Below are positions 23,782-56,881 of a DNA stretch of 64,000 nucleotides, one piece after another. A program made the position numbers and the translations under genes. Below the pieces are notes generated by a model, which ran no database searches, had not been told where the DNA came from, and was given only the letters and a program-made list of their open reading frames with translations. Every line of letters begins with the position of its first letter. Within the stretch, counting starts at the first letter, position 1. Source of the DNA: a virus; the IMG/VR virus record IMGVR_UViG_3300021511_000005, positions 32,001-96,000 of that record. One strand, given 5' to 3'.

Positions 23782-24837
23782 ATGAGCGAAACTATAGACA
23801 GAATCGTCGCAGTGGCCAAGTTCGCGGACGCCAAGAGCGACATCAACAGCAGCTTCCAGACTGTCCAGTTCACCAAGGGACGCGTGGCCGCTTGCAGCTA
23901 CGAGGGAGGGGCGTCCATGAGTATCGATGTGGACGTCAAGGCTGTGGTGGCCGCGTCCATCCTGCTGAAGGTCTGTAAGGCGATGCCCAACGCGGAGCTG
24001 TCCATGACGGAGCCGGAGAAGGGGTCCAAGGAGCGTCCGCGGCTGCAGCTCCGCCAGGGCGAGTCCGTGGCGGTCATCGACACCCAGCCGGACCAAACGG
24101 CCCCCAGAATCCCCAAGCCAGCCAAGAAGGCTACCTGGCATGAGGTCAGTGGGCTGGACGAGTTGGCGCGTGTGGCTTGGTGTTGCTGCGCGGATCCCAC
24201 GCGGAGGCACATGGCGGGCGTCTACCTGGGCCAGTACGGGATGGCCGCCACGGATGGTCACGCCGCTGTGATGCTGCAGACACCGGGGGACCTGACCAAG
24301 GAGCTGGGGGAGAACGGACAGATCGTTCCGCCGGCGATGATGAAGGGTTTGGGAAGCCCGGTGATGATGACGTCCAGCGGGCGGCAGCTGTTCTTCGCGG
24401 AAGACCCCAGCTCCGGCGATTTCCGTGTGGCCAATTGCTACGACGGACGATTCCCCCCCTTGGACCAGGCGATGAAGGGCGTGTGGAAGCAGCCCAAGAT
24501 GGAGGTCCCACGGGTCGAGTTCGAGGACATGGTCAAGTCCGCCAAGCTCGCGGACAAGAATCTGGTCCTGGCCGTGGAAGGTCAGCGGCTCCGCGTGGTG
24601 GTGGACCGCGGACGGATGGTCCAGACCCTGTTCGACTTCGAATCGGCCGTGAGCTTCGAGGGGAAGGTTCCCCCGGGCTATATCGGGTTCGGCGCTCATC
24701 TGGTTCTTCCGGCGCTCCAGGCCTGTGACAGCGATACGATCCAGGTCTTCCTCAATCCCCACGAGAAGGGGAGCATCGAGCCGATGGGCATCAGGGACGG
24801 TGGATACAAGGTCGTCATCATGCCCACGCGGATGTAG
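23782..24837 (+). CDS. dnaN: DNA polymerase III beta-like sliding clamp
   Basis: 351 aa; 'R.HMAGVY', 'AATDGH', 'DGRFP', 'IGF...V...L', C-terminal 'VVIMPTR'. Confidence 0.8.
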   Translation: MSETIDRIVAVAKFADAKSDINSSFQTVQFTKGRVAACSYEGGASMSIDVDVKAVVAASILLKVCKAMPNAELSMTEPEKGSKERPRLQLRQGESVAVIDTQPDQTAPRIPKPAKKATWHEVSGLDELARVAWCCCADPTRRHMAGVYLGQYGMAATDGHAAVMLQTPGDLTKELGENGQIVPPAMMKGLGSPVMMTSSGRQLFFAEDPSSGDFRVANCYDGRFPPLDQAMKGVWKQPKMEVPRVEFEDMVKSAKLADKNLVLAVEGQRLRVVVDRGRMVQTLFDFESAVSFEGKVPPGYIGFGAHLVLPALQACDSDTIQVFLNPHEKGSIEPMGIRDGGYKVVIMPTRM

Positions 24838-24840
24838 CCG

Positions 24841-25274: not shown

Positions 25275-25305
25275 CATCCGCAGCTCCCCGCGGAAGGGTA
25301 GAGGT

Positions 25306-33046: not shown

Positions 33047-33373
33047 ATGCGCTGGTCAGGGTTGATTGTCGCGGTGGTGGCGCTGGTCCTGGCCTTCGTG
33101 GTGGCCGTTCTGGGGTCCTGCACGGCCCCCAATCCATCGCTTCAGGACTGGGAGGCCTGGGACGTCTACTGCTATCCGGACAGCTGTGTGGCGGTCTGGC
33201 GGGCTCAGGACGGCGGTTTGGGCGTGGACCGGCTTCTGCTGTGCGATGAGACCGGGTGCTACTGCATGGGCGGGGGGAGCCTGCGGACGCGCTGCTGCGA
33301 CCGGCAGCCCTTCACCATGGAGGCCATGGAGTCCGTCTACCTCGGTGGGTGCTGCGCTACATTAGGCCCTTGA
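33047..33373 (+). CDS. Cys-rich putative lipoprotein
   Basis: Signal peptide ending in lipobox-like LGSC. Confidence 0.5.
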   Translation: MRWSGLIVAVVALVLAFVVAVLGSCTAPNPSLQDWEAWDVYCYPDSCVAVWRAQDGGLGVDRLLLCDETGCYCMGGGSLRTRCCDRQPFTMEAMESVYLGGCCATLGP

Positions 33374-33428
33374 CTTACTCCGCACTGCGGTCACCATCCT
33401 ATTGTCTTCGGACAACAAGGAGGCTCAC
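33367..33428 (+). promoter_or_regulatory. repeated promoter/operator/stem-loop/RBS cassette, copy 1
   Basis: CCCTTGACTTACTCCGCACTGCGGTCACCAT...TTGTC-TTCG-GACAA...GGAGGCTC. Confidence 0.85.
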
Positions 33429-34310
33429 ATGGCGACCAAGCAGCTCTCTCTTCTTCCCAAGTTGGCCCTGGCGGCTGCGATGTCTAGCGAGTTGAACAAG
33501 GCCAAGCGGGACGAGACCATTCCCGACCTGCAGAGCTACGATATCATTCTGGTCAACACCAGCGCGGGCAAGGACAGCCAGGCGATGCTGGACCTGGTGG
33601 TGGAGCACGCCAAGGCGGCCGGCGTCCTGGACCGGGTAATCACGGTCCACGCGGACCTGGGTCGGATGGAGTGGGCGGGGACTGGCGAGCTGGCCCGCGA
33701 GCAGGCTGAGCACTACGGGCTCCGTCTCGAGGTCGTGAAGCGTCCCCAGGGCGATTTGCTGACCCAGGTGGAGGACCGGGGTATGTGGCCGGGCCATACC
33801 ACGCGCTACTGCACCAGCGACCAGAAGCGGGGTCAGGTCTACCGCGCGATGACCGCCTTGGTCCGCGAGCTGGGTCTGAAGCGCCGGGCGCGGATCCTCA
33901 ACTGCCTGGGCCTCCGCGCGGAAGAGAGTCCTAACCGTGCCAAGCTCGAGCCTCTGAAGGCGGACAAGAAGGCCAGCAACAAGACTAAGCGTGAGGTGGA
34001 CACCTGGCTGCCCATTCACGACTGGACGGTGGAGCAGGTCTGGGCACGTATCAAGCAGAGCGGCGTCCGCCACCACCGGGCCTACGATTTGGGGATGCCC
34101 CGGCTCAGCTGCGTGTTCTGTATCTTCGCGCCCAAGGCGGCCCTGGTGCTCGCCGGCAAGCACAATCAGGAGCTGTTGGACGAGTGTGCGGGGATCGAGA
34201 AGCGGATTGGCCACACCTTCCGCCAGGATCTGACGCTGGCGGAGGTCAAGGAAGCGGTGGAGGCCGGCGAGGGCGGGGCCGTCGAGGACATCGACAGCTG
34301 GTGCTGCTAG
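33429..34310 (+). CDS. PAPS-reductase-family (PP-loop, Fe-S) protein
   Basis: PP-loop SAGKDS, 'HADLG..EW', 'RYCTS..K', 'GLRAEES..RA', 'RLSCVFC'. Confidence 0.85.
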   Translation: MATKQLSLLPKLALAAAMSSELNKAKRDETIPDLQSYDIILVNTSAGKDSQAMLDLVVEHAKAAGVLDRVITVHADLGRMEWAGTGELAREQAEHYGLRLEVVKRPQGDLLTQVEDRGMWPGHTTRYCTSDQKRGQVYRAMTALVRELGLKRRARILNCLGLRAEESPNRAKLEPLKADKKASNKTKREVDTWLPIHDWTVEQVWARIKQSGVRHHRAYDLGMPRLSCVFCIFAPKAALVLAGKHNQELLDECAGIEKRIGHTFRQDLTLAEVKEAVEAGEGGAVEDIDSWCC

Positions 34311-34322
34311 GAAGCGATTAGA

Positions 34323-34388
34323 CCCTTGACATGCTCCGCGCTGGGGTCAGCATATAGGGGTCCTCGGACACAACTCACGGAGGCTCAC
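34323..34388 (+). promoter_or_regulatory. repeated cassette, copy 2
   Basis: CCCTTGACATGCTCCGCGCTGGGGTCAGCAT...GTC-CTCG-GAC...GGAGGCTC. Confidence 0.85.
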
Positions 34389-35348
34389 ATGACGACTCAG
34401 ACCTTGTTCGACTTTGCCCGCCCCAGCCGGCCCACCAGCACCTTCACCGATAGTGACCAGCTGACGGTCGTGGACCTGTGTTGCGGCGCCGGGATGGCCT
34501 CCTTGGGCTTCAAGGCGGCCGGCGGCTACGACATCCTGGGCGGCGTGGACATCTGGGACGACGCGGTGGAGGCCTTCTGTCTCAACCACGGCAATGACTA
34601 CGACTTCTTCCAGGACGCGGGCTGGCTGGGCGTCGAGGGCGCAGCGGCTGGCCGTCAGGAGCATTCCGACGGTTGGACGGTGGACGTGGTCTTGACCGGT
34701 CCGCCCTGCCAGGACGACAGCCTGGCCAACCACGCCGCGGACAAGGGTCGTGGCGCCATCAAGGCTCCGGCGCTGGCCGCGGCGCGGGCGATGGGGGCCA
34801 CCTGGATCATCATGGAGATGGTCACGAGCAAGTACGCTGACTGGTGCCGCAGCCAGGGTGCCCGTCAGATCCTGAAACTCCAGGACTGCAAGCTGGGCGG
34901 CTTCACCATGCGGACCCGCTGGTTCGCCGTCTGGGGTCCCTGGGACCTGGTCATCACGGAAGAGCAGGGACGCGGCTGGGGTGAGGCTCTGGGTGTGGAC
35001 GACCCCGACGCCCGTCTGGCGACCGAGAGTAACAGCAAGGCCAAGCGTTGGCAGCGGGCCAAGGCTCCCCACGAGGCCGCGGATGCCTGCGTGGGCGGCG
35101 ACCGGCGCCACGTCATCCGCTTGGGTAACGGCGAGGAGATCCGGTTGGGACCCCAGGACGAGGCCGCGTTGGCCGGTTTCCCCAACTTGGAGCTGCAGCG
35201 GTCCGAGCACATGTGCAACGGGGAGCGTGAGTGGACGTGGACTCAGGGCGCCCAGAACGAGCGGGACGCCAACACCATGGTCGGCAACGGCTGGCCCATG
35301 AGCTTCGGGCGCGCCATCGGGCGGGCCATCACAAGGAGGAGCCGATGA
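34389..35348 (+). CDS. C5-cytosine DNA methyltransferase (divergent)
   Basis: Motif I DLCCGAG, motif IV GPPCQ, motif VI EMV (usually ENV), motif VIII RTR, motif X VGNG. Confidence 0.8.
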   Translation: MTTQTLFDFARPSRPTSTFTDSDQLTVVDLCCGAGMASLGFKAAGGYDILGGVDIWDDAVEAFCLNHGNDYDFFQDAGWLGVEGAAAGRQEHSDGWTVDVVLTGPPCQDDSLANHAADKGRGAIKAPALAAARAMGATWIIMEMVTSKYADWCRSQGARQILKLQDCKLGGFTMRTRWFAVWGPWDLVITEEQGRGWGEALGVDDPDARLATESNSKAKRWQRAKAPHEAADACVGGDRRHVIRLGNGEEIRLGPQDEAALAGFPNLELQRSEHMCNGEREWTWTQGAQNERDANTMVGNGWPMSFGRAIGRAITRRSR

Positions 35349-35518
35349 CCGAGAGGGAGAAGAAGCTTCAATCGATTAGGGCCGTGGCGCAGAATCTTCG
35401 AGGTGTGGCGTCGTCGGAAGAGACAACCGACGAGTACGCCATTTGGCTTCGACGTCAGGCCGCGGTCTTGGAGTCCTCGGTTCGATTTCTGGCCTCACAG
35501 CGCGAAACGAGGGAGTAG
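35345..35518 (+). CDS. hypothetical protein
   Basis: SD AAGGAGG; ATGA overlap. Confidence 0.5.
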   Translation: MTEREKKLQSIRAVAQNLRGVASSEETTDEYAIWLRRQAAVLESSVRFLASQRETRE

Positions 35519-35854
35519 ATGGCCGGCAAGGATAGCCACGGGGCAAGCGCGGCCCGGCGCGCCAAGGCGGACGCCAAGGACAAAGCCCGGCGCTTGAAGG
35601 CGCGCGGGACCTGGACGCCGCGGAAGCCGGAACAGTTGGAGCTGCCGCTGGACCGGATCGCGCTGGAGGAGGGCGTGATCTACCATCCGTGCGAGACCGG
35701 GATGGAGCCCTGCGAGGCTTGTACCGAGTGGGCCAAGACCGCGGAGCGCGACGAGTGGGGGTACTTCATAGGTCCCAGTCCCTGCGACCTGGTTCGGCGC
35801 CGGCGGCTGGAGGCTTTTACTGCGGAACACAAGACCCGAGGAATCACACTATGA
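35519..35854 (+). CDS. hypothetical protein
   Basis: SD GGGAG; contains QLELPL. Confidence 0.55.
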   Translation: MAGKDSHGASAARRAKADAKDKARRLKARGTWTPRKPEQLELPLDRIALEEGVIYHPCETGMEPCEACTEWAKTAERDEWGYFIGPSPCDLVRRRRLEAFTAEHKTRGITL

Positions 35855-36171
35855 CTGACGAACAGATAGAAGCCCGAGCTTGGGCGTTGATCAACGAGGG
35901 GCCGCTGTTTCTGGCGAAGCAGATCGTCCGGATGGATGAGGCCCTGGTGGGTCTGATTGAGCGTGTGGACCGGCTCGAAGAGAATCAGGTTGTCCTGGAT
36001 GTGGATGACATCGAGGGCCGCCTGGGAGCGGTTGAGGCGTCCTCCGAGCGATTCGAGGATCTGCAGCTCCTGGCCTTCACCGAGACCACCGCGGACCAGT
36101 TGGAGAGCCTGGAGGGTCGCCTGGATCGCTTGGAGGAGCGGGTTCCAGACCCGGAGCTGCGGACACCATGA
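35851..36171 (+). CDS. acidic coiled-coil protein
   Basis: ATGA-coupled; RVDRLEE/RLDRLEE heptads. Confidence 0.55.
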   Translation: MTDEQIEARAWALINEGPLFLAKQIVRMDEALVGLIERVDRLEENQVVLDVDDIEGRLGAVEASSERFEDLQLLAFTETTADQLESLEGRLDRLEERVPDPELRTP

Positions 36172-36914
36172 CCGCGTTCGCGAGGGGCTCCGATCTGATT
36201 GCCAAGTCTCTGGACGTGCCCGGGGTTCGGGATGCCCGGGTCTATGAGTCTGAGCCTGGGAAGGTGGATTTGGTGGTCTGGACGTATCCCGAGTATGTCT
36301 ACCCTGGCCGTGATTCGGAAGTGATCCTGGACGAAGTCCGCAGGCAAGTATCGGGGATGATACCGATGGGAGTCTTGATCAAGGTGATCAAGGGGGAGGA
36401 CATCCCGATCCAGCTCAAGAGGGCGATGATTGGCCTCCAGGGCAACGCGGCGGTGGCTATGCCTATCCTCGATTGGGTTACTGCAGATGACTTCGCTGCG
36501 GGCCTCCTGGAGTGTGAGGACCAGGTCTTCGGGAGGAGCGGGAACTGCAATTGTCAGCTGTCATGGTTCTGGTGCGCGGCCCGCTGCGCCCAAGGATCTC
36601 CACGGGCCCGGCGCTGGCTGGGGGTGGATCTGGAGCGGTCACCGGAGAGCTACTGGCAGGATCGCCACGTCTGTCAGGCGCTGAAGAGTCCCGCGATAGA
36701 GGATATCTTTGTTCATGATATCTTTCTGGAGGCCGCTGGTTACGCACCCATCCTGAAGGTTCTCCGGATGGCCTACGCCGGCGAGGGGCTGATCCTGGAT
36801 CGGGGAGTGAGCGGGGAATGGTGGGAGCTGGTCGGACTCCGCCACCAGGCCCAGCGTCGTGTTATCCTGGAGGCCGTGTGGGGCGGTGAGGAAGACGAGT
36901 CGGACTCCCCGTGA
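36168..36914 (+). CDS. hypothetical protein, N-terminus resembling a baseplate-J-type domain
   Basis: 'SLDVPGVRDARV..PGKVDLVV...ILDEVR......PMGVLIKV'. Confidence 0.5.
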   Translation: MTAFARGSDLIAKSLDVPGVRDARVYESEPGKVDLVVWTYPEYVYPGRDSEVILDEVRRQVSGMIPMGVLIKVIKGEDIPIQLKRAMIGLQGNAAVAMPILDWVTADDFAAGLLECEDQVFGRSGNCNCQLSWFWCAARCAQGSPRARRWLGVDLERSPESYWQDRHVCQALKSPAIEDIFVHDIFLEAAGYAPILKVLRMAYAGEGLILDRGVSGEWWELVGLRHQAQRRVILEAVWGGEEDESDSP

Positions 36915-36916
36915 CC

Positions 36917-38476: not shown

Positions 38477-38533
38477 CAATCGGCAGGGGCGCGGAATAGG
38501 ATCAACAGGGGCTTTGGCCCCAGGGAGGCACCG

Positions 38534-43426: not shown

Positions 43427-44066
43427 GCGGTTGCTCCGGAACCTGCGGGACGCCAAGGCGGCCCGCAACAAGTTGGTCAAGGTCTGGCGCCACAAGGTCC
43501 AGCTCCCCGAGGGGGCGAAGGTCCAGTGTCGGGGTAAGGGTTGCGTGGGCTGCTGTTACCAATTCGTCCTGGCGGGCATCTGGGAGGGCGCGTTGATCGC
43601 TCACTATCTGCTGCACACGGAGGGCTCCCACGAGCTGATTCAGGAGTGCGCGCGGGCCGGGGACGAGCAGCTCGAGCGTGTTGGGCCCGAGTACACCCCG
43701 GACGCGATCAACGCGGTCACGGGGCCCTGGTTGGACGAGAGACACCCCTGCGTCTTCCTGAAGGATGGGGTCTGCGAGATTTATGCTCTGCGGCCTATCG
43801 CGTGCTCGAGCTACGTTGTCATCAGCGATCCGGAGGTCTGCGCCGCGGGGAGCGGGGCGGAGGTTTGCGCCGGCGACAACGCGAGCTGTTTGGCCTGGAG
43901 GCTTGAGGTGGACCGGCGGCTCGTTTCGGAGCTGCTGAGCATCAAGCGGGACGACGTGGTGGTGATGCCCTTGCCGCTGCCCCGGGCGGTGACTCTGGGC
44001 TCTCAGCTCCTGCTGGAGGGGCCAGAGGCGCTTCGTGGGATTGTCCTGGGCGAATCGAACCCTTGA
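43413..44066 (+). CDS. YkgJ/CxxCxxCC cysteine-cluster protein
   Basis: 'CRGKGCVGCC', 'CVFL.DGVCEIYALRPIAC'. Confidence 0.8.
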   Translation: MMTPKRLLRNLRDAKAARNKLVKVWRHKVQLPEGAKVQCRGKGCVGCCYQFVLAGIWEGALIAHYLLHTEGSHELIQECARAGDEQLERVGPEYTPDAINAVTGPWLDERHPCVFLKDGVCEIYALRPIACSSYVVISDPEVCAAGSGAEVCAGDNASCLAWRLEVDRRLVSELLSIKRDDVVVMPLPLPRAVTLGSQLLLEGPEALRGIVLGESNP

Positions 44067-44125
44067 CATAGTCCGCATCGTGGTCACCATATGCTCGTCT
44101 TCGGACGCAACCTCAGGAGGCTCCA
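44060..44125 (+). promoter_or_regulatory. repeated cassette, copy 6
   Basis: CCCTTGACATAGTCCGCATCGTGGTCACCAT...CGTC-TTCG-GACG...GGAGGCTC. Confidence 0.85.
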
Positions 44126-44434
44126 ATGACTAAAGTGGTGTTTGAGCGGATGGAGACGGATCCCCAGGACGGGACCACGACTTGGGAGATCCGGTTGGAG
44201 ACCGGGGGCGTGACCGAGGTGGTGGGCTCCATCCACAAGGATACGGTGTGGTGCGGCGATGGCTACCGGGCGGATACCTATCATGTCGAGGTGGACCGGG
44301 ATCAGTGGGACGATTCGCGGGAGAAGACGTTCCAGGTCTGCAATATTTGGAGCCGCGGTCGTGGAACGTCGGCGCGGACTGCGATGGCCGAGGCGAAGGC
44401 CTGGGCACGCGAACAGCTCAAGGAGGGCCTCTAG
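44126..44434 (+). CDS. hypothetical protein
   Basis: Starts at the cassette RBS. Confidence 0.65.
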   Translation: MTKVVFERMETDPQDGTTTWEIRLETGGVTEVVGSIHKDTVWCGDGYRADTYHVEVDRDQWDDSREKTFQVCNIWSRGRGTSARTAMAEAKAWAREQLKEGL

Positions 44435-44676
44435 TGGCTCGCAACTCAGACGGCACGTTTGCCAGCAAGCAGCACCTGGATCGCTTCGACCATCAGCGGC
44501 AGCTCCAGATGAAGCTCCGCGAGGTCTTGACCACCGCCGCGGACAAGTTGGATCCCCAGGACGCGCTGTGGGGTGTCAAGGTGATGCGGGAGCGGCCGGA
44601 CTGGGCCGTCCCAGTGATCGAGCGTATCGAGGCCGAGCTGGCCGTTGACCGTCTAACTGGAGGCTGCAATGGTTGA
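44434..44676 (+). CDS. hypothetical protein
   Basis: TAGTG-coupled ORF. Confidence 0.5.
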   Translation: MARNSDGTFASKQHLDRFDHQRQLQMKLREVLTTAADKLDPQDALWGVKVMRERPDWAVPVIERIEAELAVDRLTGGCNG

Positions 44677-45022
44677 TCTGTTCCTGGCCCTTCTCTCCAT
44701 CCCCTTCGTTCTCCGCCCGCGGGAGGACGACTGTTGCCGGTGGGACGTCTACGCAGGCCCCATGCTCGTGGCGATCGTGGAGTACGTCCACAGCGCCAAG
44801 GGGGAGTGGATGTGGAGTCCTCCGTGTTCCGGGTTCCGTTATCCCTGTCCCTGGGACTCTTCCCGGGGGACCTGGGCGGACTCCTATCCGGACCGCCACG
44901 AGGAGGCGCTGATGGCGGAGATCCGGCGCTTCATCGAGATCCACAACGTCGAGCATCACCAGGCCTACCTGCTTGCCATGATGACCGGGGAGCGGCGCTT
45001 GCTCGAGCTGGAGGGAGAGTAG
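44669..45022 (+). CDS. hypothetical protein
   Basis: SD GGAGG. Confidence 0.55.
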   Translation: MVDLFLALLSIPFVLRPREDDCCRWDVYAGPMLVAIVEYVHSAKGEWMWSPPCSGFRYPCPWDSSRGTWADSYPDRHEEALMAEIRRFIEIHNVEHHQAYLLAMMTGERRLLELEGE

Positions 45023-45024
45023 CC

Positions 45025-45276
45025 ATGGACAAACGATCGGCCCCTACTCTGTACTTCAGCTCCAAGACCGGCAAGTGGGGCACCACGCCGATCGAGGGTG
45101 CTCCCACCTGGCAGCACAGCTCCATGATGGTCTATGAGGCCTGGTTGCGGAGCCAGGACCGTCGGCGGCGCTACGCGGCCCAGAGAGCCGCGGACCGTCG
45201 GCGGACCAAGGCCCAGTCCAAGTACATCGTCGAGCGGTGCCTGATGGCACTCCTGGCTCACTGGGAGCGGTCATGA
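45025..45276 (+). CDS. hypothetical protein
   Basis: SD GGAG. Confidence 0.5.
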   Translation: MDKRSAPTLYFSSKTGKWGTTPIEGAPTWQHSSMMVYEAWLRSQDRRRRYAAQRAADRRRTKAQSKYIVERCLMALLAHWERS

Positions 45277-45563
45277 GGCGGCGCGCGGGTGAGGACCAAG
45301 AGGATACACGTCGGCGGTTGACCTGGCGCATTGAACAGCTGGCGGAGGTGGGCTGGATCCCGGTGGGCTGGGATGATGTCCGCGGGAAGTTGGCGCCTAA
45401 GTCTCCGGCGGAGAGCCATAGGGTCCGCTGTCCCCATTGTGAAGTGACCTTTGACCACAGCAGCGGGACGGCCCGGGAGAAGCACTTGATCAAGAAACAT
45501 GGTTACAGTCGCCTGGACGGTTTCTACCGGGCTCATGGGATGGACTGCTTCGAAGAGCCTTGA
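45273..45563 (+). CDS. C2H2-like zinc-finger protein
   Basis: CPHC...F...REKHLIKKH. Confidence 0.55.
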   Translation: MRRRAGEDQEDTRRRLTWRIEQLAEVGWIPVGWDDVRGKLAPKSPAESHRVRCPHCEVTFDHSSGTAREKHLIKKHGYSRLDGFYRAHGMDCFEEP

Positions 45564-45628
45564 CATACTCCGCAGCGGGGTCATCATATCGGTTGTCAGG
45601 GCTTCGGCCCACAACCCAGGAGGCTCCG
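45558..45628 (+). promoter_or_regulatory. repeated cassette, copy 7
   Basis: CCTTGACATACTCCGCAGCGGGGTCATCAT...GGTTGT-CA-GGGC-TTCG-GCCC-ACAACC...GGAGGCTC. Confidence 0.85.
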
Positions 45629-45862: not shown

Positions 45863-46672
45863 ATGCACCAGCTCCGCCTTGCCATCGAGCCCCTGGACGA
45901 CACCCGGCCCATTCCGACCTGCCAGGATGGAACCGGGCCCATCTGCCCCTGGTGCGGGGAGGAGCGTTTCCTGGATGTCCTGGAGTACTGGCCGGAGGAG
46001 CGGGCGTGGATGTTCGATACCTGCTGTGAGGGCTCCCATCAGGATGCCTGTGAGCACGCCGCCCAGGACCCCCGGGGCTTCGGTCGTTGGTTTGAGGGCG
46101 TGACTGGTTGCTACGTCCGTCAGGGTTACCAGAGTACGGTGGAGCCCGACTTTCTCCGCCTGGACTTCGGTTTGACCGTGGGGCCGGTGAAGCAGGCGGA
46201 CGCCAAGGCCTTCATCAGCGAGCATCACCGCCACAACAACGCACCGGCCGGCTGGAAGTGGGGTTTGGGCTGCTACAACGGCCACGAGCTAATCGCAGTC
46301 CTGTGGGTCGGTCGTCCGGTGGCGCGGAAGCTGGACCACACCAAGATCGTCGAGGTCAACCGCTTGTGTGTGAATCCCGACCTGGACCCGGAGCTGGTGT
46401 GGAACGCTTGCTCGAAGCTCTACGCTGAGGCGGCCCGGGAGGCCAAGACTCGGCGCTACGACAGGGCCATCACCTACACCCTGGCGAGCGAGTCCGGCGG
46501 GACCCTGGTGGCTGCGGGCTGGACCCCGACGCACCGCACCGAGGGAGGAAGCTGGGATCGCCCGAGCCGAGCCCGCACCGACAAGGCCCCGACTTGCCAG
46601 AAGATCCGTTGGGAGAAGGGTTGCAACAAGCGCGCCCGTAAGGACATCGCCAAGCGGGCCATCACCCTGTAA
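45863..46672 (+). CDS. XF1762/Mom-like GNAT-fold putative DNA-modification protein
   Basis: 'AKAFISEHHRH', 'VGRPVAR.LD', 'EVNRLC', 'NACSKLY', 'ITYTL.SESG..L.AAGW'. Confidence 0.75.
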   Translation: MHQLRLAIEPLDDTRPIPTCQDGTGPICPWCGEERFLDVLEYWPEERAWMFDTCCEGSHQDACEHAAQDPRGFGRWFEGVTGCYVRQGYQSTVEPDFLRLDFGLTVGPVKQADAKAFISEHHRHNNAPAGWKWGLGCYNGHELIAVLWVGRPVARKLDHTKIVEVNRLCVNPDLDPELVWNACSKLYAEAAREAKTRRYDRAITYTLASESGGTLVAAGWTPTHRTEGGSWDRPSRARTDKAPTCQKIRWEKGCNKRARKDIAKRAITL

Positions 46673-51430: not shown

Positions 51431-54400
51431 TTGTCCCATTACCTACGGAATCCCCTGATACCGGGGCAAGGCCCCAAGCTGGTGATAGGTATGCGGAACC
51501 TGCGGAACGATGTCCGCGTGGACACGTCTGCGCTGGCGGAGTTGACCCGGCCGCCGAAGCCCCTGGGCCGGCCGGTCATACCCGGCGGGGAGCATGAGTA
51601 CCGCTCCGCGGATGAGGTCGCCAAGGGTCTGGGACTCAACCACGACCAGGAGCGGGACTTTCTCCAGGCGATGAAGGCCTGGTTGAGCGAGCCCAACGTG
51701 GTGTCCTTCCGCAAGTCGCTGGTCCGCGGTCTGCGGAAGATGGCACCCGGCAACGGTCCGTTGCGTGGGGAGCTGGCGCGCCGGGCGGTTCAGGTCTGGA
51801 AGGCCACAAGGGGGAACCACCCCTCTCGGACCTACGGACGGGAGGGGCAGCCCCAGGACATCATCCGCAAGGCCAAGAAGGACAAGCCTATCAGCGGTCA
51901 GTTGGGGTTGTTTGGGGGGACGCTGCCCAAGGGCGTCACAGTGGGCAAGCCCAAGAAGCCCAAGAAGCAGGTGAAGGCCGCGGCGGCGAGTGCGGGCTGG
52001 CAGGCGATCCCCGCGGGGAAGCACGGCGGCCAGCGCCGGCGGAAGGGCAATAAGTGGGAGTACCGCTACCCCGATGGTAAGGGAGGCTGGTCAGGCCAGC
52101 CCCAGAAGGCTGAGCCCAAACCGGTGAAGGTCCCAGAGCTGAAGCCCGAGGCCCGGAAGATGGCGTACAAGGGCCTGCGGACCTGGGTCACCGCGAGCGG
52201 TCACGGGACGACCAAGGAGGAGCTGGAGCAGCGACTGGCCGCGGCGCTCGAGGCCCAGAAGCAGTCCGAGGTATTTAGCTTCAAGGTGACGCACGTCAAG
52301 CGGGAGAAGGCCCAGAAGCATGACGACGGCCGATCGGTCCCCGCCTATGACGAGTGGGACGTGGAGGTCGAGCACCAGGCTGCCATTCCCGGTCACCAGT
52401 TGACCGGCAAGATCGAAACGGCCACTGGCGTGGTGACGCTGTTCCACGACAAAGCTACCGTTTCCAAGGACGATTACGCGCGGGCGCAGAGGGGCGTCTG
52501 TGACGTCTGCAAGACCAAGCGTCGGCGGAATTCGGTCTTCGTGGTGCAGCGGGAATCCGACGATAAGCACTTGTTGGTGGGTGGAGAGTGTTCCAAGAAG
52601 TTCAAGGGGGCCAATCTGTGGCGGTTGGCCAACGCCATGGAGGAGGTGGACCTGGGCGGCGCCATCGCGGATGCCTTTGACGAGGGAGAGGGCTTCGGCG
52701 GTGGTGGTGGTGGCGGACCCCGGTCCGCGGAGCCCCACGATCTGCTGGGGACAGCGTTGTGGCTCGTCCGTAAAGAGGGCTATATCGGCGGCGCGGATGC
52801 AGATGCCGAGATGACCATGTCCACACCCGATCGGGTCAAGGAGATCCTGGCCGGGGGGAAGGCCGCCCCAACCAAGGAGGAGCAAGCCGAGATTGATCGG
52901 GAAGCCGAGCTGATCAAGAAGGACCTTCCCGAGATTCGGAAATGGATCCAGGAACGCATCCCCACGGACCCGGACGCGGTCATCACCAAGGACATCGCGT
53001 TTGCGGTGACGGTGGACAAGCTCCTGGGCTCCGATTTCATCGAGCCCAAGCACTTCAGCCGCGTGGTGTGGGTTCCACATCGCTACTACAAGATGGTTCA
53101 GCGGCGTGAACAGAAGGCGAAGGCCAAGCCCTACGAGGCTCCCCACGCCAAGATGCACAACCTCCCCGGTGAGTGGACGATCTTGTCCAACACCGTCAAG
53201 GACTCGGACTACGGTTCCTACAACTCGGTGACCGCGATGGACGCGGAGGGACACAAGATCTGGTTCCGCCAGACAGACGCCTACGATCTGAAGGAGGGGG
53301 ACAAGGTCACGCTCCGCGGCAAGCTCAAGGATCAGAAGGACACCATCACGTTCATGTCCCACATGAAGGTGAAGAATCTGTCCGAGGAGAAGCGGCAGTC
53401 TGTGATCGAGGCCGAAGCCGAGGAGTTCCGCAAGGAGCGGGCGCGGCGGATGGCGAGTACGGATCCGAAGGAAATCGTCCAGGTCAAGATGCACGAGGCC
53501 TATGATCCAACACCAGGCGGCACTGAGCGCCAGTCGGCCTTCCGCAAGAAGCTGGTCAAGGCTGTGGTGGCTTTGATGAAGGAAGGCGCCGAGATCCCCC
53601 ACGACGCCCTGTATACGACGTGGGATTACTTCGACGGCTACGGCGACGACAAACGACCCGAGAAGGAGAAGCGCGGGGACCCGGTAGCCGCCGCGGCTAC
53701 ACGCCAGTATGCCAAGGTCCAGGCCGGCGAGAATCCGGTCAACGCCAAGGAGCTGTTGGAGCTGTTACCCGAGGTGGGGGCTCGCATGATCCGCAAGAAG
53801 TTGGGGGAAGAGGCAGCCAAGTGGATCTTCAAGCGGGCCGGCCTGGCCAAGTCCATGGATGATGATTTGGCGAGGCTGCGGCCGCGGATGATCCTTCAGC
53901 CCACGAGTCACCCTATGGAGCTGGTATGGATGGCCGAAGAGGTCCCGGACAATCTCCACGAGACCTGGAAGCGGATGCCTCCGGGTTGGCCGGCCGCCGA
54001 TGAGATCCTCAAGGCGAAGTACTTCAAGCGGACGGGCTCGCCGGGAAACTACGTTTACTACTACAAGCGAGACGATGGATCGGTCCAGGCCGTCCGCCAG
54101 AAGATGCACCCGGAGGGTGATCCTCGGAGGCGGGGTCCCTACAAGAAGACCAAGAACGCCAAGGGAGAGACCGTTTACACCGGCGGGGAGAAGCCGCCGG
54201 GCGCGGGCTGGGAGAAGATCCCGGAGAGTCCACACGGCGGGATGCGGCGGCCGGTGAGCGGCGGCAAGGTCCGTCAGTGGGAGTTCTGGTATCCGGGTGG
54301 GGGGGAGAAGCAGACGGCGATGTTCGGTGGTGGGGGTGCAGCCCCGCCGGCACCGGCGGCACCCGAAGCGGCCAAGGGTGGCCCGGTCAAGTGGTCCAAG

Positions 54401-56881
54401 ACGGATGGCGGCTACGAAGCCCGCGGCGGCTCCATCAAGATCCGGAAGCAGGGCAAGAAGTGGGAGATGGTCTACTACGGCGAGACCATCCCCATCACCA
54501 CCAGGAAGCCGAGCTTCGACCACGCGGAGGGTTTGATTCGCGAGCGTGAGGCGCCAAAGCAGACCGACCTGTTCCGTGCCCTGATGGCCACGGGTCTCTT
54601 CGAGCTGCGGAAGGCGGCGGGGCACAAGTACTTGAAGCGGATCCCCACGGGCAAGCCCAAGCCCAAGTATCGCTACATCTACCGCCAGCCCAAGGGTGGG
54701 CTCACCAGCTCCAGGGACATCCAGGCCGGCGCCAAATTCAAGGTGGAGCACGCCGGCAAGTTGGGTCACTTCGAGGTCAAGGGCCACGACGCCCACAACG
54801 GAATCGTGACGCTGCAGCATGACGAGTCGGGCAGGATCGCCCATATCCGGGAGAAGGACCTACACCGGATGATCACCAGCCACCACGAGAAGCAGACCAA
54901 GAAGGTTACCGAGAAGCCGGACGAGTTCGCGGCAGAGCGGGCGGAGCTGCGCCAACGGCTGGCCACGAGTGAGGCCAAGCGCCGGCGCGCGGAGAAGAAG
55001 GCCCCCAAGAAGCCGGAGGCCAAGGGGCCCGTTCCGGAGCTTCCGCGGGCGAGCCTGGAAGACCTGGGCAAGGGTGGCTACGACAAGATCGAGGGCTTCA
55101 GTGCCGACCCGAAGGATCTGGAGACGCAGGCGTCCCTGATGGGGGGCGATCGGGAGTATGCGATCATTCCCCAGGCCGGTGGTCACGTTCTGGCGAGCCG
55201 GGCCAAGGCCAGCGGGACGGTCAAGGAGGCCAAGGGAGACAAGGCGGAGCTGGTGATGCGGGGCTCCAAGGGCAAGAGCCTGGACAAGGTGGAGGTGGAG
55301 TACGTGGTGATGGAGGCCAAGGACCTGGTGGCCAGTCATGATCCCACAAGCTTCGAGCCCCGGGCGGCCTATCCCGAGGGCGTCCAGGAGCGGCGTTACG
55401 AGGTCCAGGGCTCCGGTGATCAGGGCAAGATCGATCGCATTGCGCGGGAAATGGAGCCGGCGCTGATGGTCAACACCAATCCGTCCGCCATCGACGGGTC
55501 CCCGATGGTCACCGAGGAGGGGATCGTCCTGGGCGGCAACGGGCGAACCATGGGCCTGCAGCGGGCCTATCAGCTCTATCCAGAGAAGGCTCAGGAGATG
55601 AAGGACTACCTGGCCAAGCATGCCCGCGGCTTCGGCGTTAGCTCCGCAGAGCTGTCCAAGATGAAGCAGCCGGTCCTGGTGCGGCGGATGAAGGCGGAGA
55701 CCAAGGATCTGACCGCGCTGGGTCGGCGGATGAATGAGGCGCTGACCCAAGGCATGGACCCGCGGACCATCGAGGTCGCGCTGGGTCAGAACTACGTCAC
55801 GCCCGAGCTGATGGACAGCCTCACCCACAACATGGACCCGGGCCAGTCGATGTCCGAGTTCCTGCGGACCGCCAAGTCCCGCCCCTTCGTGGAGGCGCTC
55901 GAGCGCGCCGGCGTTATCGACCAGTACAACAAGGACGAGTTCGTGGAGAAGGGAAAGGGTGTCCTGAACGAGGACGGCCGGATGCGGGTGGAGCGAGTTC
56001 TGACCGCTCGCATGATCCCGGATGCCAGCGCCTTGTCCCGGATGGGGACCAAGCTCCGGCAGACCATCGCCAAGAGCGTCCCTTCCCTGATCCAGATGGA
56101 GCGCAACGGGTGGAGCGTCCAGGAGGCGCTGGAGCTGGCCGTCAAGGTGGACAACGACATGCGGCTGGAAGGCTTCAGCGGCGGGACCCGGACGTCCAAG
56201 AAGGCAGGCGGCAAGATCAAGATCCCGATGTCCGAGCACCGCGAGTCCTACAGGCAGCAGCAGACCCTGGGGGACAGCCTTCAGCGCCAGATCGAAGGGA
56301 ACCCGCTGGCCCAGCTCCTGCTCGAGACGATCCAGGACAAGGCGGACAAGAACATGCCGTCCAAGTGGCGTCAGGTGGCGCTCGAGGCGGATCGCCAACG
56401 GGCGCGCAAGGCCTCCGCCGGTGAAGCTAAGGGTCAGGCCATGCTGGGCGGCGAGGACATCGTGGAGGAGCGGTCCTTGGAGGACAGCATCCGCGGCGCG
56501 TTCGGGCTGAAGAAGCAGGCCCAGCAGGGTGGCCTGTTCGCCATGAGCCTCCCGGAGCCGGATCTGGTGAAGGCCGGCGCGGAGCTGACCAGCTACCTGA
56601 TGCACGCGGTCTTGTGGGAGGTCGAGAACCTGATCCGCGGGGCGGTGGTGGACGGGAAGCCCCCGAGCGGCGGGCAGCTTTTGCCGCGGCTCCAGGCCTT
56701 CATCAAGGACCAGGCCGCGGCGGACCAGAAGTTCGCCCAAGCTTTGGGCGCTCATCCCCTGAGTTCGGAGGCCCTGAAGGGGCTCCTGAAGGCCTCCGCG
56801 ATGTCACGATCGACAGACCTGGCCAAGAGCATGGCTCGCTCGAGCCTGCATGCCAGCTGGAGGGATTTGTATGCCGGCTAA
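51431..56881 (+). CDS. giant (1816 aa) mosaic/polyvalent protein with DdrB-like ParB domain; probable virion-internal protein
   Basis: 'YVVMEAKDLVASHD...YPEGVQERRY...DGSPMV..G.VLGGNGR' (~55295-55760); lies between terL and portal. Confidence 0.7.
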   Translation: MSHYLRNPLIPGQGPKLVIGMRNLRNDVRVDTSALAELTRPPKPLGRPVIPGGEHEYRSADEVAKGLGLNHDQERDFLQAMKAWLSEPNVVSFRKSLVRGLRKMAPGNGPLRGELARRAVQVWKATRGNHPSRTYGREGQPQDIIRKAKKDKPISGQLGLFGGTLPKGVTVGKPKKPKKQVKAAAASAGWQAIPAGKHGGQRRRKGNKWEYRYPDGKGGWSGQPQKAEPKPVKVPELKPEARKMAYKGLRTWVTASGHGTTKEELEQRLAAALEAQKQSEVFSFKVTHVKREKAQKHDDGRSVPAYDEWDVEVEHQAAIPGHQLTGKIETATGVVTLFHDKATVSKDDYARAQRGVCDVCKTKRRRNSVFVVQRESDDKHLLVGGECSKKFKGANLWRLANAMEEVDLGGAIADAFDEGEGFGGGGGGGPRSAEPHDLLGTALWLVRKEGYIGGADADAEMTMSTPDRVKEILAGGKAAPTKEEQAEIDREAELIKKDLPEIRKWIQERIPTDPDAVITKDIAFAVTVDKLLGSDFIEPKHFSRVVWVPHRYYKMVQRREQKAKAKPYEAPHAKMHNLPGEWTILSNTVKDSDYGSYNSVTAMDAEGHKIWFRQTDAYDLKEGDKVTLRGKLKDQKDTITFMSHMKVKNLSEEKRQSVIEAEAEEFRKERARRMASTDPKEIVQVKMHEAYDPTPGGTERQSAFRKKLVKAVVALMKEGAEIPHDALYTTWDYFDGYGDDKRPEKEKRGDPVAAAATRQYAKVQAGENPVNAKELLELLPEVGARMIRKKLGEEAAKWIFKRAGLAKSMDDDLARLRPRMILQPTSHPMELVWMAEEVPDNLHETWKRMPPGWPAADEILKAKYFKRTGSPGNYVYYYKRDDGSVQAVRQKMHPEGDPRRRGPYKKTKNAKGETVYTGGEKPPGAGWEKIPESPHGGMRRPVSGGKVRQWEFWYPGGGEKQTAMFGGGGAAPPAPAAPEAAKGGPVKWSKTDGGYEARGGSIKIRKQGKKWEMVYYGETIPITTRKPSFDHAEGLIREREAPKQTDLFRALMATGLFELRKAAGHKYLKRIPTGKPKPKYRYIYRQPKGGLTSSRDIQAGAKFKVEHAGKLGHFEVKGHDAHNGIVTLQHDESGRIAHIREKDLHRMITSHHEKQTKKVTEKPDEFAAERAELRQRLATSEAKRRRAEKKAPKKPEAKGPVPELPRASLEDLGKGGYDKIEGFSADPKDLETQASLMGGDREYAIIPQAGGHVLASRAKASGTVKEAKGDKAELVMRGSKGKSLDKVEVEYVVMEAKDLVASHDPTSFEPRAAYPEGVQERRYEVQGSGDQGKIDRIAREMEPALMVNTNPSAIDGSPMVTEEGIVLGGNGRTMGLQRAYQLYPEKAQEMKDYLAKHARGFGVSSAELSKMKQPVLVRRMKAETKDLTALGRRMNEALTQGMDPRTIEVALGQNYVTPELMDSLTHNMDPGQSMSEFLRTAKSRPFVEALERAGVIDQYNKDEFVEKGKGVLNEDGRMRVERVLTARMIPDASALSRMGTKLRQTIAKSVPSLIQMERNGWSVQEALELAVKVDNDMRLEGFSGGTRTSKKAGGKIKIPMSEHRESYRQQQTLGDSLQRQIEGNPLAQLLLETIQDKADKNMPSKWRQVALEADRQRARKASAGEAKGQAMLGGEDIVEERSLEDSIRGAFGLKKQAQQGGLFAMSLPEPDLVKAGAELTSYLMHAVLWEVENLIRGAVVDGKPPSGGQLLPRLQAFIKDQAAADQKFAQALGAHPLSSEALKGLLKASAMSRSTDLAKSMARSSLHASWRDLYAG

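What the first reader, a model, noticed from the sequence alone, without database searches (positions are those of the whole stretch)
23782..56539. Own sliding clamp plus clamp-binding-like motifs on DNA-modification and virion proteins
Seen: a beta-clamp gene (23782-24837) and Q-x-x-L-[FL]-like peptides at exposed termini or linkers. N-termini: PAPS-reductase-like protein (QLSLL, 33441), C5-MTase (QTLFDF, 34398) and Mom-like protein (QLRL, 45869). Also QLELPL (35633), C-terminal QLGL (38456), and four in the 1816-aa protein: QLGLF (51899), QTAMF (54311), QTDLF (54560), QGGLF (56525). Known: QL[SD]LF and QLxLxL are the beta-clamp-binding consensus motifs. Inference: modification enzymes ride the clamp to mark nascent DNA, while injected protein fragments dock on or titrate the host clamp. 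No clamp loader is visible in the window.
Basis: partly seen in the sequence, partly recalled or inferred. Interest (0 to 1): 0.75.

Follow-up and report, generated by a model that had tools for sequence, protein, structure and literature searches.

The report
Clamp-docking tags on phage DNA-modifying proteins
A 109-kb uncultured phage encodes its own DNA sliding clamp, and its DNA-modifying enzymes and a giant multi-domain protein carry short, conserved peptide tags matching the known clamp-docking motif, which suggests (untested) that phages tether these proteins to the replication clamp.

Summary
Observation partly confirmed. The gene at 23782-24837 is a real but divergent DnaN-type beta clamp (profile, fold). 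All nine cited peptides are at the stated coordinates. The genome (97% complete) has no clamp loader.

The placement is not chance:
- Qxx[LM]F occurs 4 times in the 1816-aa protein vs 0.17 expected, and 33 vs 3.05 across 14 homologous ddrB-ParB polyvalent proteins, at conserved linker sites.
- Three of 119 proteins carry a strict motif in the first 10 residues (0.25 expected, P=0.003). All three are DNA-modification enzymes.
- The tags recur in relatives: PAPS-reductase-like family 10/120 vs ~0.25 expected; four of the seven closest C5-MTase cluster representatives; a Mom-like homologue; Streptomyces phage Gilgamesh gp116.

Best reading: genuine clamp-binding-type short linear motifs that tether modification enzymes and polyvalent-protein modules to a beta clamp. 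Binding, and which clamp, are untested.

I found no published description. Phage Mu MuC and IS transposases are precedents. Earlier notes of this scan reported similar motifs on other DNA.

The parts
23782..24837 (+). Divergent DnaN-type beta sliding clamp (351 aa); ends ...VIMPTRM
   Evidence: phrog_947 E=2e-24. Phage-only profile vs PDB DnaN E=1.5e-11. Model pLDDT 80, TM 0.65-0.76 to DnaN structures. Pocket columns read.
33429..34310 (+). PAPS-reductase-like (DndC/SspD/BrxP-type PP-loop) protein with an N-terminal extension; tag QLSLL at 33441-33455 (residues 5-9)
   Evidence: PF01507 E=3e-16. Start and SD. Tag recurs in 10/120 homologues vs ~0.25 expected.
34389..35348 (+). C5 cytosine DNA methyltransferase; N-terminal tag QTLFDF at 34398-34415 (residues 4-9)
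   Evidence: PF00145 39 bits; PPCQ motif visible. Relatives P0144 QLGFAF, P0145 QTSFDF, P0154 QTAFDF, P0169 QTIFSF.
35519..35854 (+). 111-aa protein: basic tail, then QLELPL (35633-35650, residues 39-44), then a Cys-rich domain
   Evidence: GC3 0.82 and sequence. Matches the canonical hexamer. No relatives found, so conservation is untested.
36981..38075 (+). Second PAPS-reductase-like protein; untagged here (MTQTALNV), but its L006 orthologue probably starts MTTQLSLAF
   Evidence: phrog_424 E=2e-13; L006 5418-6461.
38135..38476 (+). 113-aa protein of unknown function ending in QLGLGV* (38456-38473)
   Evidence: Start fixed by the cassette copy at 38069 ending GGAGGCTCTG-ATG. C-terminal placement not significant alone, P=0.09.
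45863..46672 (+). Mom-like DNA-modification protein; N-terminal tag QLRLAI at 45869-45886 (residues 3-8)
   Evidence: phrog_1384 E=3e-28; Pfam Mom 26.6 bits, just under the cut-off. L001 homologue starts MKQLKLKLNLG.
51431..56881 (+). 1816-aa ddrB-ParB polyvalent-type protein with four linker motifs: QLGLF 51899-51913, QTAMF 54311-54325, QTDLF 54560-54574, QGGLF 56525-56539
   Evidence: PF18763 E=2.5e-21. Homologues with SNF2, methylase and DarA_N modules. 4 vs 0.17 expected. Family 33 vs 3.05.
56871..61100 (+). 1409-aa protein (DUF5661, TMEM65-like) with QMGFQF in a Gly/Ala/Lys linker (58401-58418)
   Evidence: Single instance, conservation not tested.
10426..12489 (+). Family A DNA polymerase with 3'-5' exonuclease; no Q-type motif anywhere
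   Evidence: PF00476 E=1e-77; motif scans.
33367..45589 (+). Seven copies of a promoter-like/operator/RBS cassette (33367, 34323, 36917, 38069, 40947, 44060, 45558) heading the operons that hold the tagged small proteins
   Evidence: the repeat finder families D1-D3. The repeat ends at the start codon, so it does not create the tags.

Best explanation
The peptides are genuine short linear motifs of the beta-clamp-binding type (Q-phi-x-[L/M]-[F/L] and Q-phi-x-[L/M]-x-[F/L]), placed on flexible tails and linkers.

At the extreme N-terminus of the PAPS-reductase-like protein, the C5 methyltransferase and the Mom-like protein, they would hook each enzyme to a sliding clamp left on newly replicated DNA. 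Phage DNA would then be modified as it is made. This would be the bacterial-virus analogue of DNMT1-PCNA (my own knowledge).

In the 1816-aa ddrB-ParB polyvalent protein, four such motifs in inter-domain linkers would dock the protein, or its processed modules, onto clamps. Because there are several, they might also sequester clamps.

The phage's own DnaN homologue keeps the hydrophobic subsite and the C-terminal MPxR of the peptide pocket, has no loader of its own, and would therefore be loaded by the host loader. It may serve as a private platform for these clients. In relatives without a phage clamp the same tags must address the host clamp.

Shown: motif positions, enrichment, conservation, clamp identity. 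Inferred: binding, which clamp, coupling to replication, virion delivery.
For: Clamp identity.

Pocket columns retained: R152, L155 (M/L), T172, G174, H175, P242, V360/361, M362, P363, R365.

Polyvalent protein: 4 Qxx[LM]F vs 0.17 expected. Across 14 homologues 33 vs 3.05, with perfect QLSLF, QLDLF, QLELF and QLGLF, at four conserved linker sites where Q, [LM] and F are held while the x positions vary. With X..[LM]F, Q=33 and every other residue is 7 or fewer. Flanks are Gly/Pro/Lys-rich.

N-terminal tags: 3 of 119 proteins vs 0.25 expected, P=0.003, and all three are DNA-modification enzymes. PAPS-reductase family 10/120 vs 0.23-0.29 expected, always on an added N-terminal extension. C5-MTase relatives: 4 of the 7 closest cluster representatives. 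Mom-like L001 MKQLKLKL vs window MHQLRLAI, with otherwise unalignable tails. L006 PAPS-reductase MTTLTQTGFDF, its second PAPS-reductase-like protein MTTQLSLAF, and a 352-aa protein ending QLTLAL*. Gilgamesh gp116 MQTATLFDL plus a ~50-aa linker.

Motif definition and affinities: PMC11139829.

Precedent for an N-terminal phage clamp-binding motif that works and can deplete the clamp: MuC, bioRxiv 10.1101/2025.01.04.631326.
Against: No binding data and no complex model; the tools fold single chains only.

The proteome-wide frequency of the loose motif is at chance.

The Q-T-x-F-[D/S]-F class breaks the canonical rule of L/M at position 4, and T at position 2 gives weak binding in epsilon QTSMAF.

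The phage clamp has lost R176, L177, R246, N320 and Y323, so its pocket may differ or be inactive.

The phage's family A polymerase has no motif, so the clamp's principal client is unknown.

Most PAPS-reductase homologues have no tag.

Virion packaging of the 1816-aa protein rests on analogy to P1 DdrB (PMC5512222).

Three of the four polyvalent motifs lie beside aromatic hairpin-like units, so they could be part of a larger module with another role.
Confidence: 0.6

Rival explanations
1. The motifs are real docking signals, but for another partner: a capsid-targeting or 'cargo' tag (motif plus aromatic hairpin) read by the scaffold, portal or prohead protease, or a phage-specific hub protein. 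The likeness to the clamp motif would be coincidental.
For: Three of the four motifs in the 1816-aa protein lie next to WEYRYP, WEFWYP and YRYIYR hairpin-like units, and the gene sits between TerL and the portal. A first-reader note on this genome reads it this way (e1-6005987). The Q-T-x-F-x-F variant is non-canonical for E. coli beta.
Against: The enzymes' N-terminal tags have no hairpin, and they lie in promoter-cassette operons upstream of the TerL/portal block. Many instances equal the highest-affinity clamp consensus QLxLF letter for letter. Position 1 is strongly Q-specific. Unchecked scan notes report the same motif on DarB-like proteins of plasmids and ICEs, which have no capsid.
Confidence: 0.15
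2. The motifs do bind the clamp, but mainly to titrate or block the host clamp (host replication shut-off, disturbance of Hda/RIDA) rather than to tether enzymes to nascent phage DNA. The phage's divergent clamp would then be a resistant replacement.
For: The polyvalent proteins carry multiple motifs, up to 6 per protein. Overexpressed MuC depletes the clamp through its clamp-binding motif. The phage clamp's pocket differs from the canonical one around the Gln subsite. The phage polymerase has no motif.
Against: Single N-terminal tags on catalytic DNA-modifying enzymes fit recruitment better than titration. No loader is encoded, so the phage clamp must still fit the host loader, which uses the same pocket (mechanism from PMC11139829).
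Confidence: 0.15
3. Chance plus over-reading: short Q/L/F peptides are common in a Leu-rich, 63% GC proteome, and the apparent pattern comes from post hoc motif definitions and shared ancestry of homologues.
For: Proteome-wide counts equal expectation. QLxL is 11 vs 9.9. QLGLGV* has P=0.09. QLELPL, QLGLGV* and QMGFQF have no conservation data. Homologous instances are not independent. My motif sets were chosen after seeing the data.
Against: 0 of 20,000 shuffles reach the count in the 1816-aa protein. The N-terminal excess in the PAPS-reductase family is over 30-fold, with many unrelated tail sequences. Q is specific at position 1. The motif is kept at sites where the flanks diverge. The same tag class appears on three unrelated enzyme folds.
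Confidence: 0.05

Closest known systems
Clamp-binding motifs (CBMs) of bacterial beta-clamp clients: Pol II QLGLF, Pol IV QLVLGL, Pol V QLNLF, Pol III alpha QADMF, epsilon QTSMAF, Hda N-terminal QLSLPL (review PMC11139829)
   Same: Same sequence class (Q-phi-x-[L/M]-[F/L] or the hexamer). Same placement logic: disordered N-terminus as in Hda, C-terminus as in Pol IV, or loops. QLGLF is identical to the Pol II motif, and QLELPL/QLSLL are close to Hda's.
   Different: The clients are DNA-modification enzymes and a polyvalent protein, not polymerases or repair factors. A recurrent Q-T-x-F-[D/S]-F variant has Phe at position 4. Binding is untested.
Phage Mu MuC, a clamp-dependent late transcription activator with the N-terminal CBM QHDLF (bioRxiv 10.1101/2025.01.04.631326)
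   Same: A phage protein with a clamp-binding motif at its N-terminus that is functionally required. Excess protein depletes the host clamp.
   Different: MuC is a transcription factor using the host clamp. Here the tagged proteins are enzymes or a polyvalent protein, and the phage brings its own clamp.
IS transposases that bind the beta clamp (PMC3971601, PMC4549789)
   Same: Mobile-element proteins that acquired clamp-binding motifs to couple their action to host replication.
   Different: Different protein classes and a different mobile-element biology.
Polyvalent proteins of phages and conjugative elements; P1 DdrB/DarB (Iyer et al. 2017, PMC5512222)
   Same: ddrB-ParB hub domain, giant multi-domain architecture, late-gene context, homologues with SNF2 helicase, methylase and DarA_N modules.
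   Different: That paper does not mention the clamp (0 occurrences). The linker motif reported here is not part of the published description. No MPTase domain was detected in this protein.
Eukaryotic DNMT1-PCNA coupling through a PIP box (own knowledge, not checked here)
   Same: A DNA methyltransferase tethered by a short N-terminal-region motif to the sliding clamp so that nascent DNA is modified.
   Different: Different clamp family (PCNA trimer) and motif (PIP box); maintenance methylation rather than phage self-protection.
T4 gp45 clamp with multiple non-polymerase clients (own knowledge)
   Same: A phage-encoded clamp used as a platform by several phage proteins through short terminal peptides.
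   Different: gp45 is a PCNA-like trimer with its own loader (gp44/62). Here the clamp is a DnaN-type dimer homologue with no loader.

Membership tests
Bacterial beta sliding clamp (DnaN) | Sequence homology to DnaN over all three domains | tested here: met
   A profile of 7 phage-family members hits PDB DnaN at E=1.5e-11, residues 51-350. phrog_947 matches at E=2e-24.
Bacterial beta sliding clamp (DnaN) | Reaches Pfam DnaN domain models (PF00712/PF02767/PF02768) | tested here: not met
   No Pfam family at E<=0.01. PF00712 finds nothing in the genome. The protein is too divergent for the curated models.
Bacterial beta sliding clamp (DnaN) | Three-domain clamp fold | tested here: met
   AlphaFold model pLDDT 80.4, pTM 0.69. 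Foldseek TM 0.65-0.76 and probability 1.00 to about 50 DnaN chains.
Bacterial beta sliding clamp (DnaN) | Peptide-binding pocket residues | tested here: inconclusive
   Kept: R152, L155 (M/L), T172, G174, H175, P242, V360/361, M362, P363, R365. Changed: R176, L177, R246, N320, Y323, M364. E. coli numbering is from my own knowledge, anchored on P0009 motifs.
Bacterial beta sliding clamp (DnaN) | Forms a ring on DNA, loaded by a clamp loader | not testable with these tools
   No loader is encoded. Loading by the host loader is inferred.
Canonical clamp-binding motif (PMC11139829: Q-phi-x-[L/M]-[F/L] or Q-phi-x-[L/M]-x-[F/L]) | Sequence pattern | tested here: inconclusive
   Fully met by QLSLL, QLELPL and QLGLF. 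Near: QLRLAI (Ile at position 6) and QLGLGV (Val at position 6). Position 2 is not aliphatic in QTAMF, QTDLF and QGGLF. Not met by QTLFDF and QMGFQF (Phe at position 4).
Canonical clamp-binding motif | Lies in a disordered terminus or exposed loop | tested here: met
   The tags sit on extensions absent from most homologues. Linker flanks are 50-75% G/P/K/S/T/A. Gilgamesh has a ~50-aa P/A/K linker after its tag. No structural model of these regions was made.
Canonical clamp-binding motif | Binds the subsite I/II pocket of the clamp | not testable with these tools
   Only single-chain prediction is available; no binding assay.
Polyvalent proteins (Iyer et al. 2017) | Multi-domain protein with a hub domain such as DdrB-ParB | tested here: met
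   PF18763 at residues 1285-1421 and phrog_2319 at residues 262-634. Homologues add SNF2, methylase, DarA_N and InPase modules.
Polyvalent proteins (Iyer et al. 2017) | Encoded among late/virion genes and delivered with the DNA | tested here: inconclusive
   The gene lies between TerL (49330-51417) and the portal (61110-62819). Packaging and injection are not testable here.
Polyvalent proteins (Iyer et al. 2017) | Zincin-like MPTase for self-processing | tested here: not met
   No peptidase domain was detected in the 1816-aa protein. A separate M10-like peptidase gene lies at 31925-32551.
Mom family | Profile match | tested here: inconclusive
   Pfam Mom scores 26.6 bits against a cut-off of 27.1. 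phrog_1384 'Mom-like DNA modification protein' matches at E=3e-28.
C5 cytosine DNA methyltransferase | Profile match and catalytic Pro-Cys motif | tested here: met
   PF00145 scores 39.2 bits against a cut-off of 22, N-terminal half only. DLCCGAGM and GPPCQ are visible in the translation.
PAPS-reductase-domain DNA sulfur-insertion enzymes (DndC/SspD/BrxP) | PAPS_reduct PP-loop domain | tested here: met
   PF01507 scores 60 bits; the SAGKDS PP-loop is present.
PAPS-reductase-domain DNA sulfur-insertion enzymes (DndC/SspD/BrxP) | Partner NTPase (DndD/SspC/BrxC) and phosphorothioate product | not tested
   I did not search for a partner, and the chemistry is unknown. Calling it a 'DNA-modification enzyme' is an inference from PMC12914056 and from gene context.

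The most novel reading that the evidence does not exclude
Tethering to the sliding clamp through short terminal or linker motifs is a general, undescribed design principle of counter-defence proteins of phages and conjugative elements (DNA-modifying enzymes and polyvalent/DarB/DdrB-type proteins). Some phages additionally carry a divergent, loader-less DnaN whose altered pocket co-evolved with a private tag variant (Q-T-x-F-[D/S]-F), giving them an orthogonal clamp platform that the host's clients do not compete for.
Probability: 0.3. Interest if true: 0.85.

Novelty: new variant of a known kind. Interest (0 to 1): 0.7.

Why it matters
If the tags bind the clamp, phage DNA-modification enzymes (C5 methylase, Mom-like, PAPS-reductase-like) would be coupled to the replication fork. 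That would explain how a phage can modify its whole genome fast enough to escape restriction. It would be a bacterial-virus counterpart of DNMT1-PCNA.

It would also give the enigmatic polyvalent proteins a first shared address in the cell, namely clamps on DNA. The clamp would become a point of conflict among host, phage and plasmids.

Practically, the tags are short, mutable handles. Q/L/F mutants with a methylome or plaque readout make the idea directly testable. The motif could also improve annotation of the unannotated extensions and linkers in thousands of metagenomic phage proteins.

Tried and rejected
1. Single-sequence fold of the clamp: pLDDT 32, useless. Replaced by an alignment-based model.
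2. The PDB profile search with A1 was biased by two true DnaN rows. Repeated with phage-only A2.
3. Close relatives in 'phages', IMG/VR and GTDB genomes: none found. So QLELPL, QLGLGV* and QMGFQF have no conservation test.
I could therefore not fetch the contigs of the clamp, polyvalent, MTase and PAPS-reductase homologues. The co-occurrence of tag class with phage clamp could not be tested.
5. DNA-repeat artefact: the seven-copy cassette ends at the start codon. At most it shares ATG-ACC-[C/A]AG-AC, and it does not encode the hydrophobic part of the tags. Rejected.
6. Helicase: three internal Qxx[LM]F lie in hydrophobic, folded-looking context. I recall equivalent conserved DnaB core segments, so they are probably structural. 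Not tested.
7. Sigma-like ORF (~3870-4346): only an HTH-embedded QLGLAY and no terminal tag.
8. Polymerase as clamp client: family A, with no motif at its termini or inside.
9. Identity of the L006 352-aa protein ending QLTLAL*: no Pfam, PHROG or PDB hit. The Atlas suggests 'T4 beta protein'/DpdA-like, which is a lead only.
10. The C5-MTase representative set beyond the seven closest is dominated by catalytic motif I (V-x-D-L-F), so it gives no information about tags.

Full report
CONTEXT. The window is bases 32001-96000 of a 109,478-bp IMG/VR virus record, linear and estimated 97% complete. It is about 63% GC with nearly all genes on the + strand. Neither a 20-kb stretch of the window nor the clamp protein matches any deposited phage.

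The window holds a replication module:
- DnaB-like helicase 1202-2773, primase 2770-3840, SSB-like protein 5876-7441, UvsX/RecA-like recombinase 7649-8788.
- Family A DNA polymerase 10426-12489, SbcD/SbcC 13018-16112, ParB-methyltransferase 18439-19827.
Then come a long block of small genes, and a late block with TerL 49330-51417, the 1816-aa protein, a 1409-aa protein and the portal 61110-62819.

THE CLAMP. ORF 23782-24837 has no Pfam hit and no direct PDB sequence hit. It does match phrog_947 'DNA polymerase processivity factor' end to end (E=2e-24). Only six close homologues exist among 5.8 billion proteins.

A profile built from those phage proteins alone finds DnaN structures at E=1.5e-11 over residues 51-350. 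The family ends in the DnaN-typical ...MPxR. An alignment-based AlphaFold model (pLDDT 80, pTM 0.69) superposes on about 50 bacterial DnaN chains at TM 0.65-0.76. So it is a genuine but very divergent beta clamp.

I read the pocket columns from the alignment (E. coli numbering from my own knowledge, anchored on the canonical DnaN P0009).
- Kept: R152, L155 (M/L), T172, G174, H175, P242, V360/361, M362, P363, R365.
- Changed: R176 to A/S, L177 to A/G/C, R246 to Q, N320 to G/S/A, Y323 to L.
The pocket is therefore plausibly functional but altered.

The genome has no clamp-loader or AAA+ homologue. The polymerase is family A and has no Q-type motif.

THE PEPTIDES. All nine peptides are at the stated coordinates. 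Start codons needed correction. Both the PAPS-reductase-like gene and the C5-MTase gene start at an ATG behind GGAGGCTCAC, which gives MATKQLSLLPKL and MTTQTLFDFARP. The Mom-like protein starts MHQLRLAIEPL. The 'QLGL' gene is 38135-38476 and ends QLGLGV*. A copy of a seven-fold promoter/RBS cassette fixes its start.

IS IT MORE THAN CHANCE?

The placement is another matter. With a strict set (Q..[LM]F, QL.L[LF], QL.L.[LFIVM], Q..F.F) the genome has only 13 instances:
- Three are in the helicase, in hydrophobic, folded-looking context.
- One is inside the clamp.
- Three lie within the first 10 residues of the three modification enzymes (0.25 expected, P=0.003).
- One is QLELPL, after a basic tail.
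- Four are in Gly/Pro/Lys-rich linkers of the 1816-aa protein.
- One is in a linker of the 1409-aa protein.
The C-terminal QLGLGV* is not significant on its own (P=0.09).

POLYVALENT PROTEIN. The 1816-aa protein carries a ddrB-ParB domain (PF18763). Its homologues combine that domain with SNF2 helicase, methylase, DarA_N and other modules. That is the 'polyvalent protein' architecture of Iyer et al. 2017 (PMC5512222).

Qxx[LM]F occurs 4 times against 0.17 expected, and 0 of 20,000 shuffles reach that count. In 14 homologues there are 33 instances against 3.05 expected. They include perfect QLSLF, QLDLF, QLELF and QLGLF, and they sit at four orthologous linker sites:
- after the N-terminal domain;
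- right after an EFWYPGG unit;
- Q-x-[DE]-LFKAL..GLF;
- Q-x-G-LFAMSLP near the C-terminus.
At these sites Q, [LM] and F are held while the x positions vary. Position 1 is Q in 33 cases, and no other residue exceeds 7. Iyer et al. never mention the clamp.

N-TERMINAL TAGS IN RELATIVES.

PAPS-reductase-like family (3,549 hits, best 120 read). Most members start MxPDLxSYDVILVNS. A subset has an added N-terminal extension that opens with the motif: MAQQLSLLP, MTQQLALDL, MPHVAQLELF, MKPQLELF, MSIAPEQLSLLF, MTQQDMF, MNTQQRLF, MTQTAFSF and MQTAFDF. That is 10 of 120 against 0.23-0.29 expected, with a maximum of 3-4 in 500 shuffles.

A related metagenome contig (L006) gives MTTLTQTGFDF for the same enzyme. 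It also gives MTTQLSLAF for the second PAPS-reductase-like protein, which is untagged in the window, and a 352-aa protein ending QLTLAL*.

Streptomyces phage Gilgamesh gp116 starts MQTATLFDL, followed by a ~50-residue Pro/Ala/Lys linker. The clamp profile finds no clamp in that phage, though that search had no positive control. The Klebsiella and Pseudomonas phage homologues have no extension.

C5-MTase. Of the seven closest cluster representatives, four carry MTAQLGFAF, MADTQTSFDF, MTAQTAFDF or MTDKQTIFSF.

Mom-like protein. The L001 homologue starts at a GTG behind GGAGG and reads MKQLKLKLNLG. The window's protein reads MHQLRLAIEPL. The motif is at residues 3-8 in both, although the tails are otherwise unalignable and the cores share 37% identity.

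So three unrelated enzyme folds in this phage group carry the same kind of N-terminal tag, and the tag comes and goes between orthologues. The tags are not produced by the repeated promoter cassette, which ends at the start codon.

COMPARISON WITH KNOWN MOTIFS. The 2024 review (PMC11139829) defines canonical clamp-binding motifs as Q-phi-x-[L/M]-[F/L] and Q-phi-x-[L/M]-x-[F/L]. QLxLF binds best, Hda's motif lies in a disordered N-terminus, and epsilon's QTSMAF is a weak natural variant.
- QLSLL, QLELPL and QLGLF are fully canonical.
- QLRLAI and QLGLGV are near-canonical hexamers.
- QTAMF, QTDLF and QGGLF deviate at position 2.
- QTLFDF, and its relatives Q-T-x-F-[D/S]-F, has Phe at position 4 and is non-canonical.

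Precedents for mobile-element clients are phage Mu MuC and IS transposases. MuC has the N-terminal motif QHDLF, which is required for late transcription, and excess MuC depletes the clamp. The transposase papers are PMC3971601 and PMC4549789. I found no paper linking the clamp to phage modification enzymes, anti-restriction or polyvalent proteins.

PAPS-reductase-domain proteins (DndC, SspD, BrxP) insert sulfur in DNA phosphorothioation (PMC12914056). This is why I treat the phage homologues as probable DNA-modification enzymes. That is an inference.

MECHANISM. Most likely (0.6) these are clamp-binding short linear motifs. They would tether modification enzymes to clamps on freshly replicated DNA, and dock the polyvalent protein or its modules onto clamps. 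The phage's loader-less DnaN would be loaded by the host loader and could act as a private platform. Where no phage clamp exists, the host clamp must be the partner. Binding, partner identity, coupling to replication and virion delivery are all inferred.

Rivals:
- a different docking partner, such as a capsid 'cargo tag' (0.15);
- clamp titration as the main purpose (0.15);
- chance (0.05).

EARLIER NOTES OF THIS SCAN (AI notes, unchecked by me unless stated). Similar clamp-type motifs were reported on other DNA:
- by first readers, in another clamp-encoding phage and in another element (e1-5981550, e1-5920885);
- by follow-up agents, on DarB-like proteins of an ICE and a pTet plasmid (e1-961576, e1-1990330).
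A reader of this genome interpreted the linker motif plus hairpin as a cargo tag (e1-6005987). I partly tested this: the enzymes' tags lack the hairpin. Another reader described the promoter cassette (e1-6005980), which I confirmed.

My motif sets were chosen after seeing the data. Homologous instances are not independent. No complex prediction or experiment was possible.

Noticed in passing
window 24622-24639 vs 34398-34415: The clamp itself contains QTLFDF (residues 281-286; LFDFE is invariant in its family). This is letter-identical to the N-terminal tag of the C5-MTase. By my own post hoc arithmetic, the chance of that exact hexapeptide in a 351-aa protein is about 3e-6. It might be mimicry of a clamp segment. 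Unexplained.
   Followed up: partly
window 33367, 34323, 36917, 38069, 40947, 44060, 45558: There are seven copies of a cassette: CCTTGACAT, then an inverted repeat CTCCGC-N4-GCGGTC, then CATAT, then about 25 nt, then GGAGGCTC-N2-3-ATG. It looks like a promoter with an operator and RBS. The copies head the operons that contain all the tagged small proteins.
   Followed up: partly
window 5876-7441: The SSB-like protein ends in ...DPDVPF, a classic acidic SSB C-terminal docking tail. This is a second hub-type short motif in the same phage.
   Followed up: no
window 51431-56881 (residues ~206-220, 872-886, 949-960, 1008-1020, 1077-1090): Short aromatic hairpin-like units (NKWEYRYP, GNYVYYYK, QWEFWYPGG, KKWEMVYYG, KPKYRYIYR) recur next to the Q-motifs. 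Related GGKWADxxHxIPW units recur in homologues P0013, P0017 and P0019. Function unknown.
   Followed up: partly
L006:378-1436: A 352-aa protein in a related contig ends in QQLTLAL*, a QLxLxL at the extreme C-terminus. It has no Pfam, PHROG or PDB match. The nearest Atlas clusters are 'T4 beta protein family' (0.95) and a cluster that is 17% DpdA (0.94). It may be a DNA base-exchange enzyme; this is a lead only.
   Followed up: partly
window 56871-61100: A 1409-aa protein between the polyvalent protein and the portal carries DUF5661 (residues 95-137) and a TMEM65-like membrane segment (residues 398-493). No PHROG family matches.
   Followed up: no
window 1202-2773: The DnaB-like helicase holds three internal Qxx[LM]F (QPGMF, QRNMF, QPVLF), as many as the rest of the proteome outside the polyvalent protein. 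Their flanks are hydrophobic, so they are probably core structural segments rather than docking motifs. Not tested.
   Followed up: partly
window ~3870-4346: A small ECF-sigma-like ORF (region 4 HTH ...SAKELSKQLGLAYGTVRNQL...) follows the primase gene. Its GC3 signal is weak and it has no terminal tag.
   Followed up: partly
window 31925-32551 and 41859-42608: There is a matrixin/M10-like zinc peptidase (PF00413, E=3e-11) and a SprT-like zinc protease-domain protein (PF10263, E=6e-8) among the small-gene block. They are candidates for processing the giant proteins or for acting on DNA-protein crosslinks.
   Followed up: no
L008 (MN234216.1 103185-104276): Streptomyces phage Gilgamesh gp116 (PAPS reductase-like) starts MQTATLFDL and then has a ~50-aa Pro/Ala/Lys linker. 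It is a cultured phage in which the tag hypothesis could be tested. The A1 profile found no clamp homologue in that genome.
   Followed up: partly
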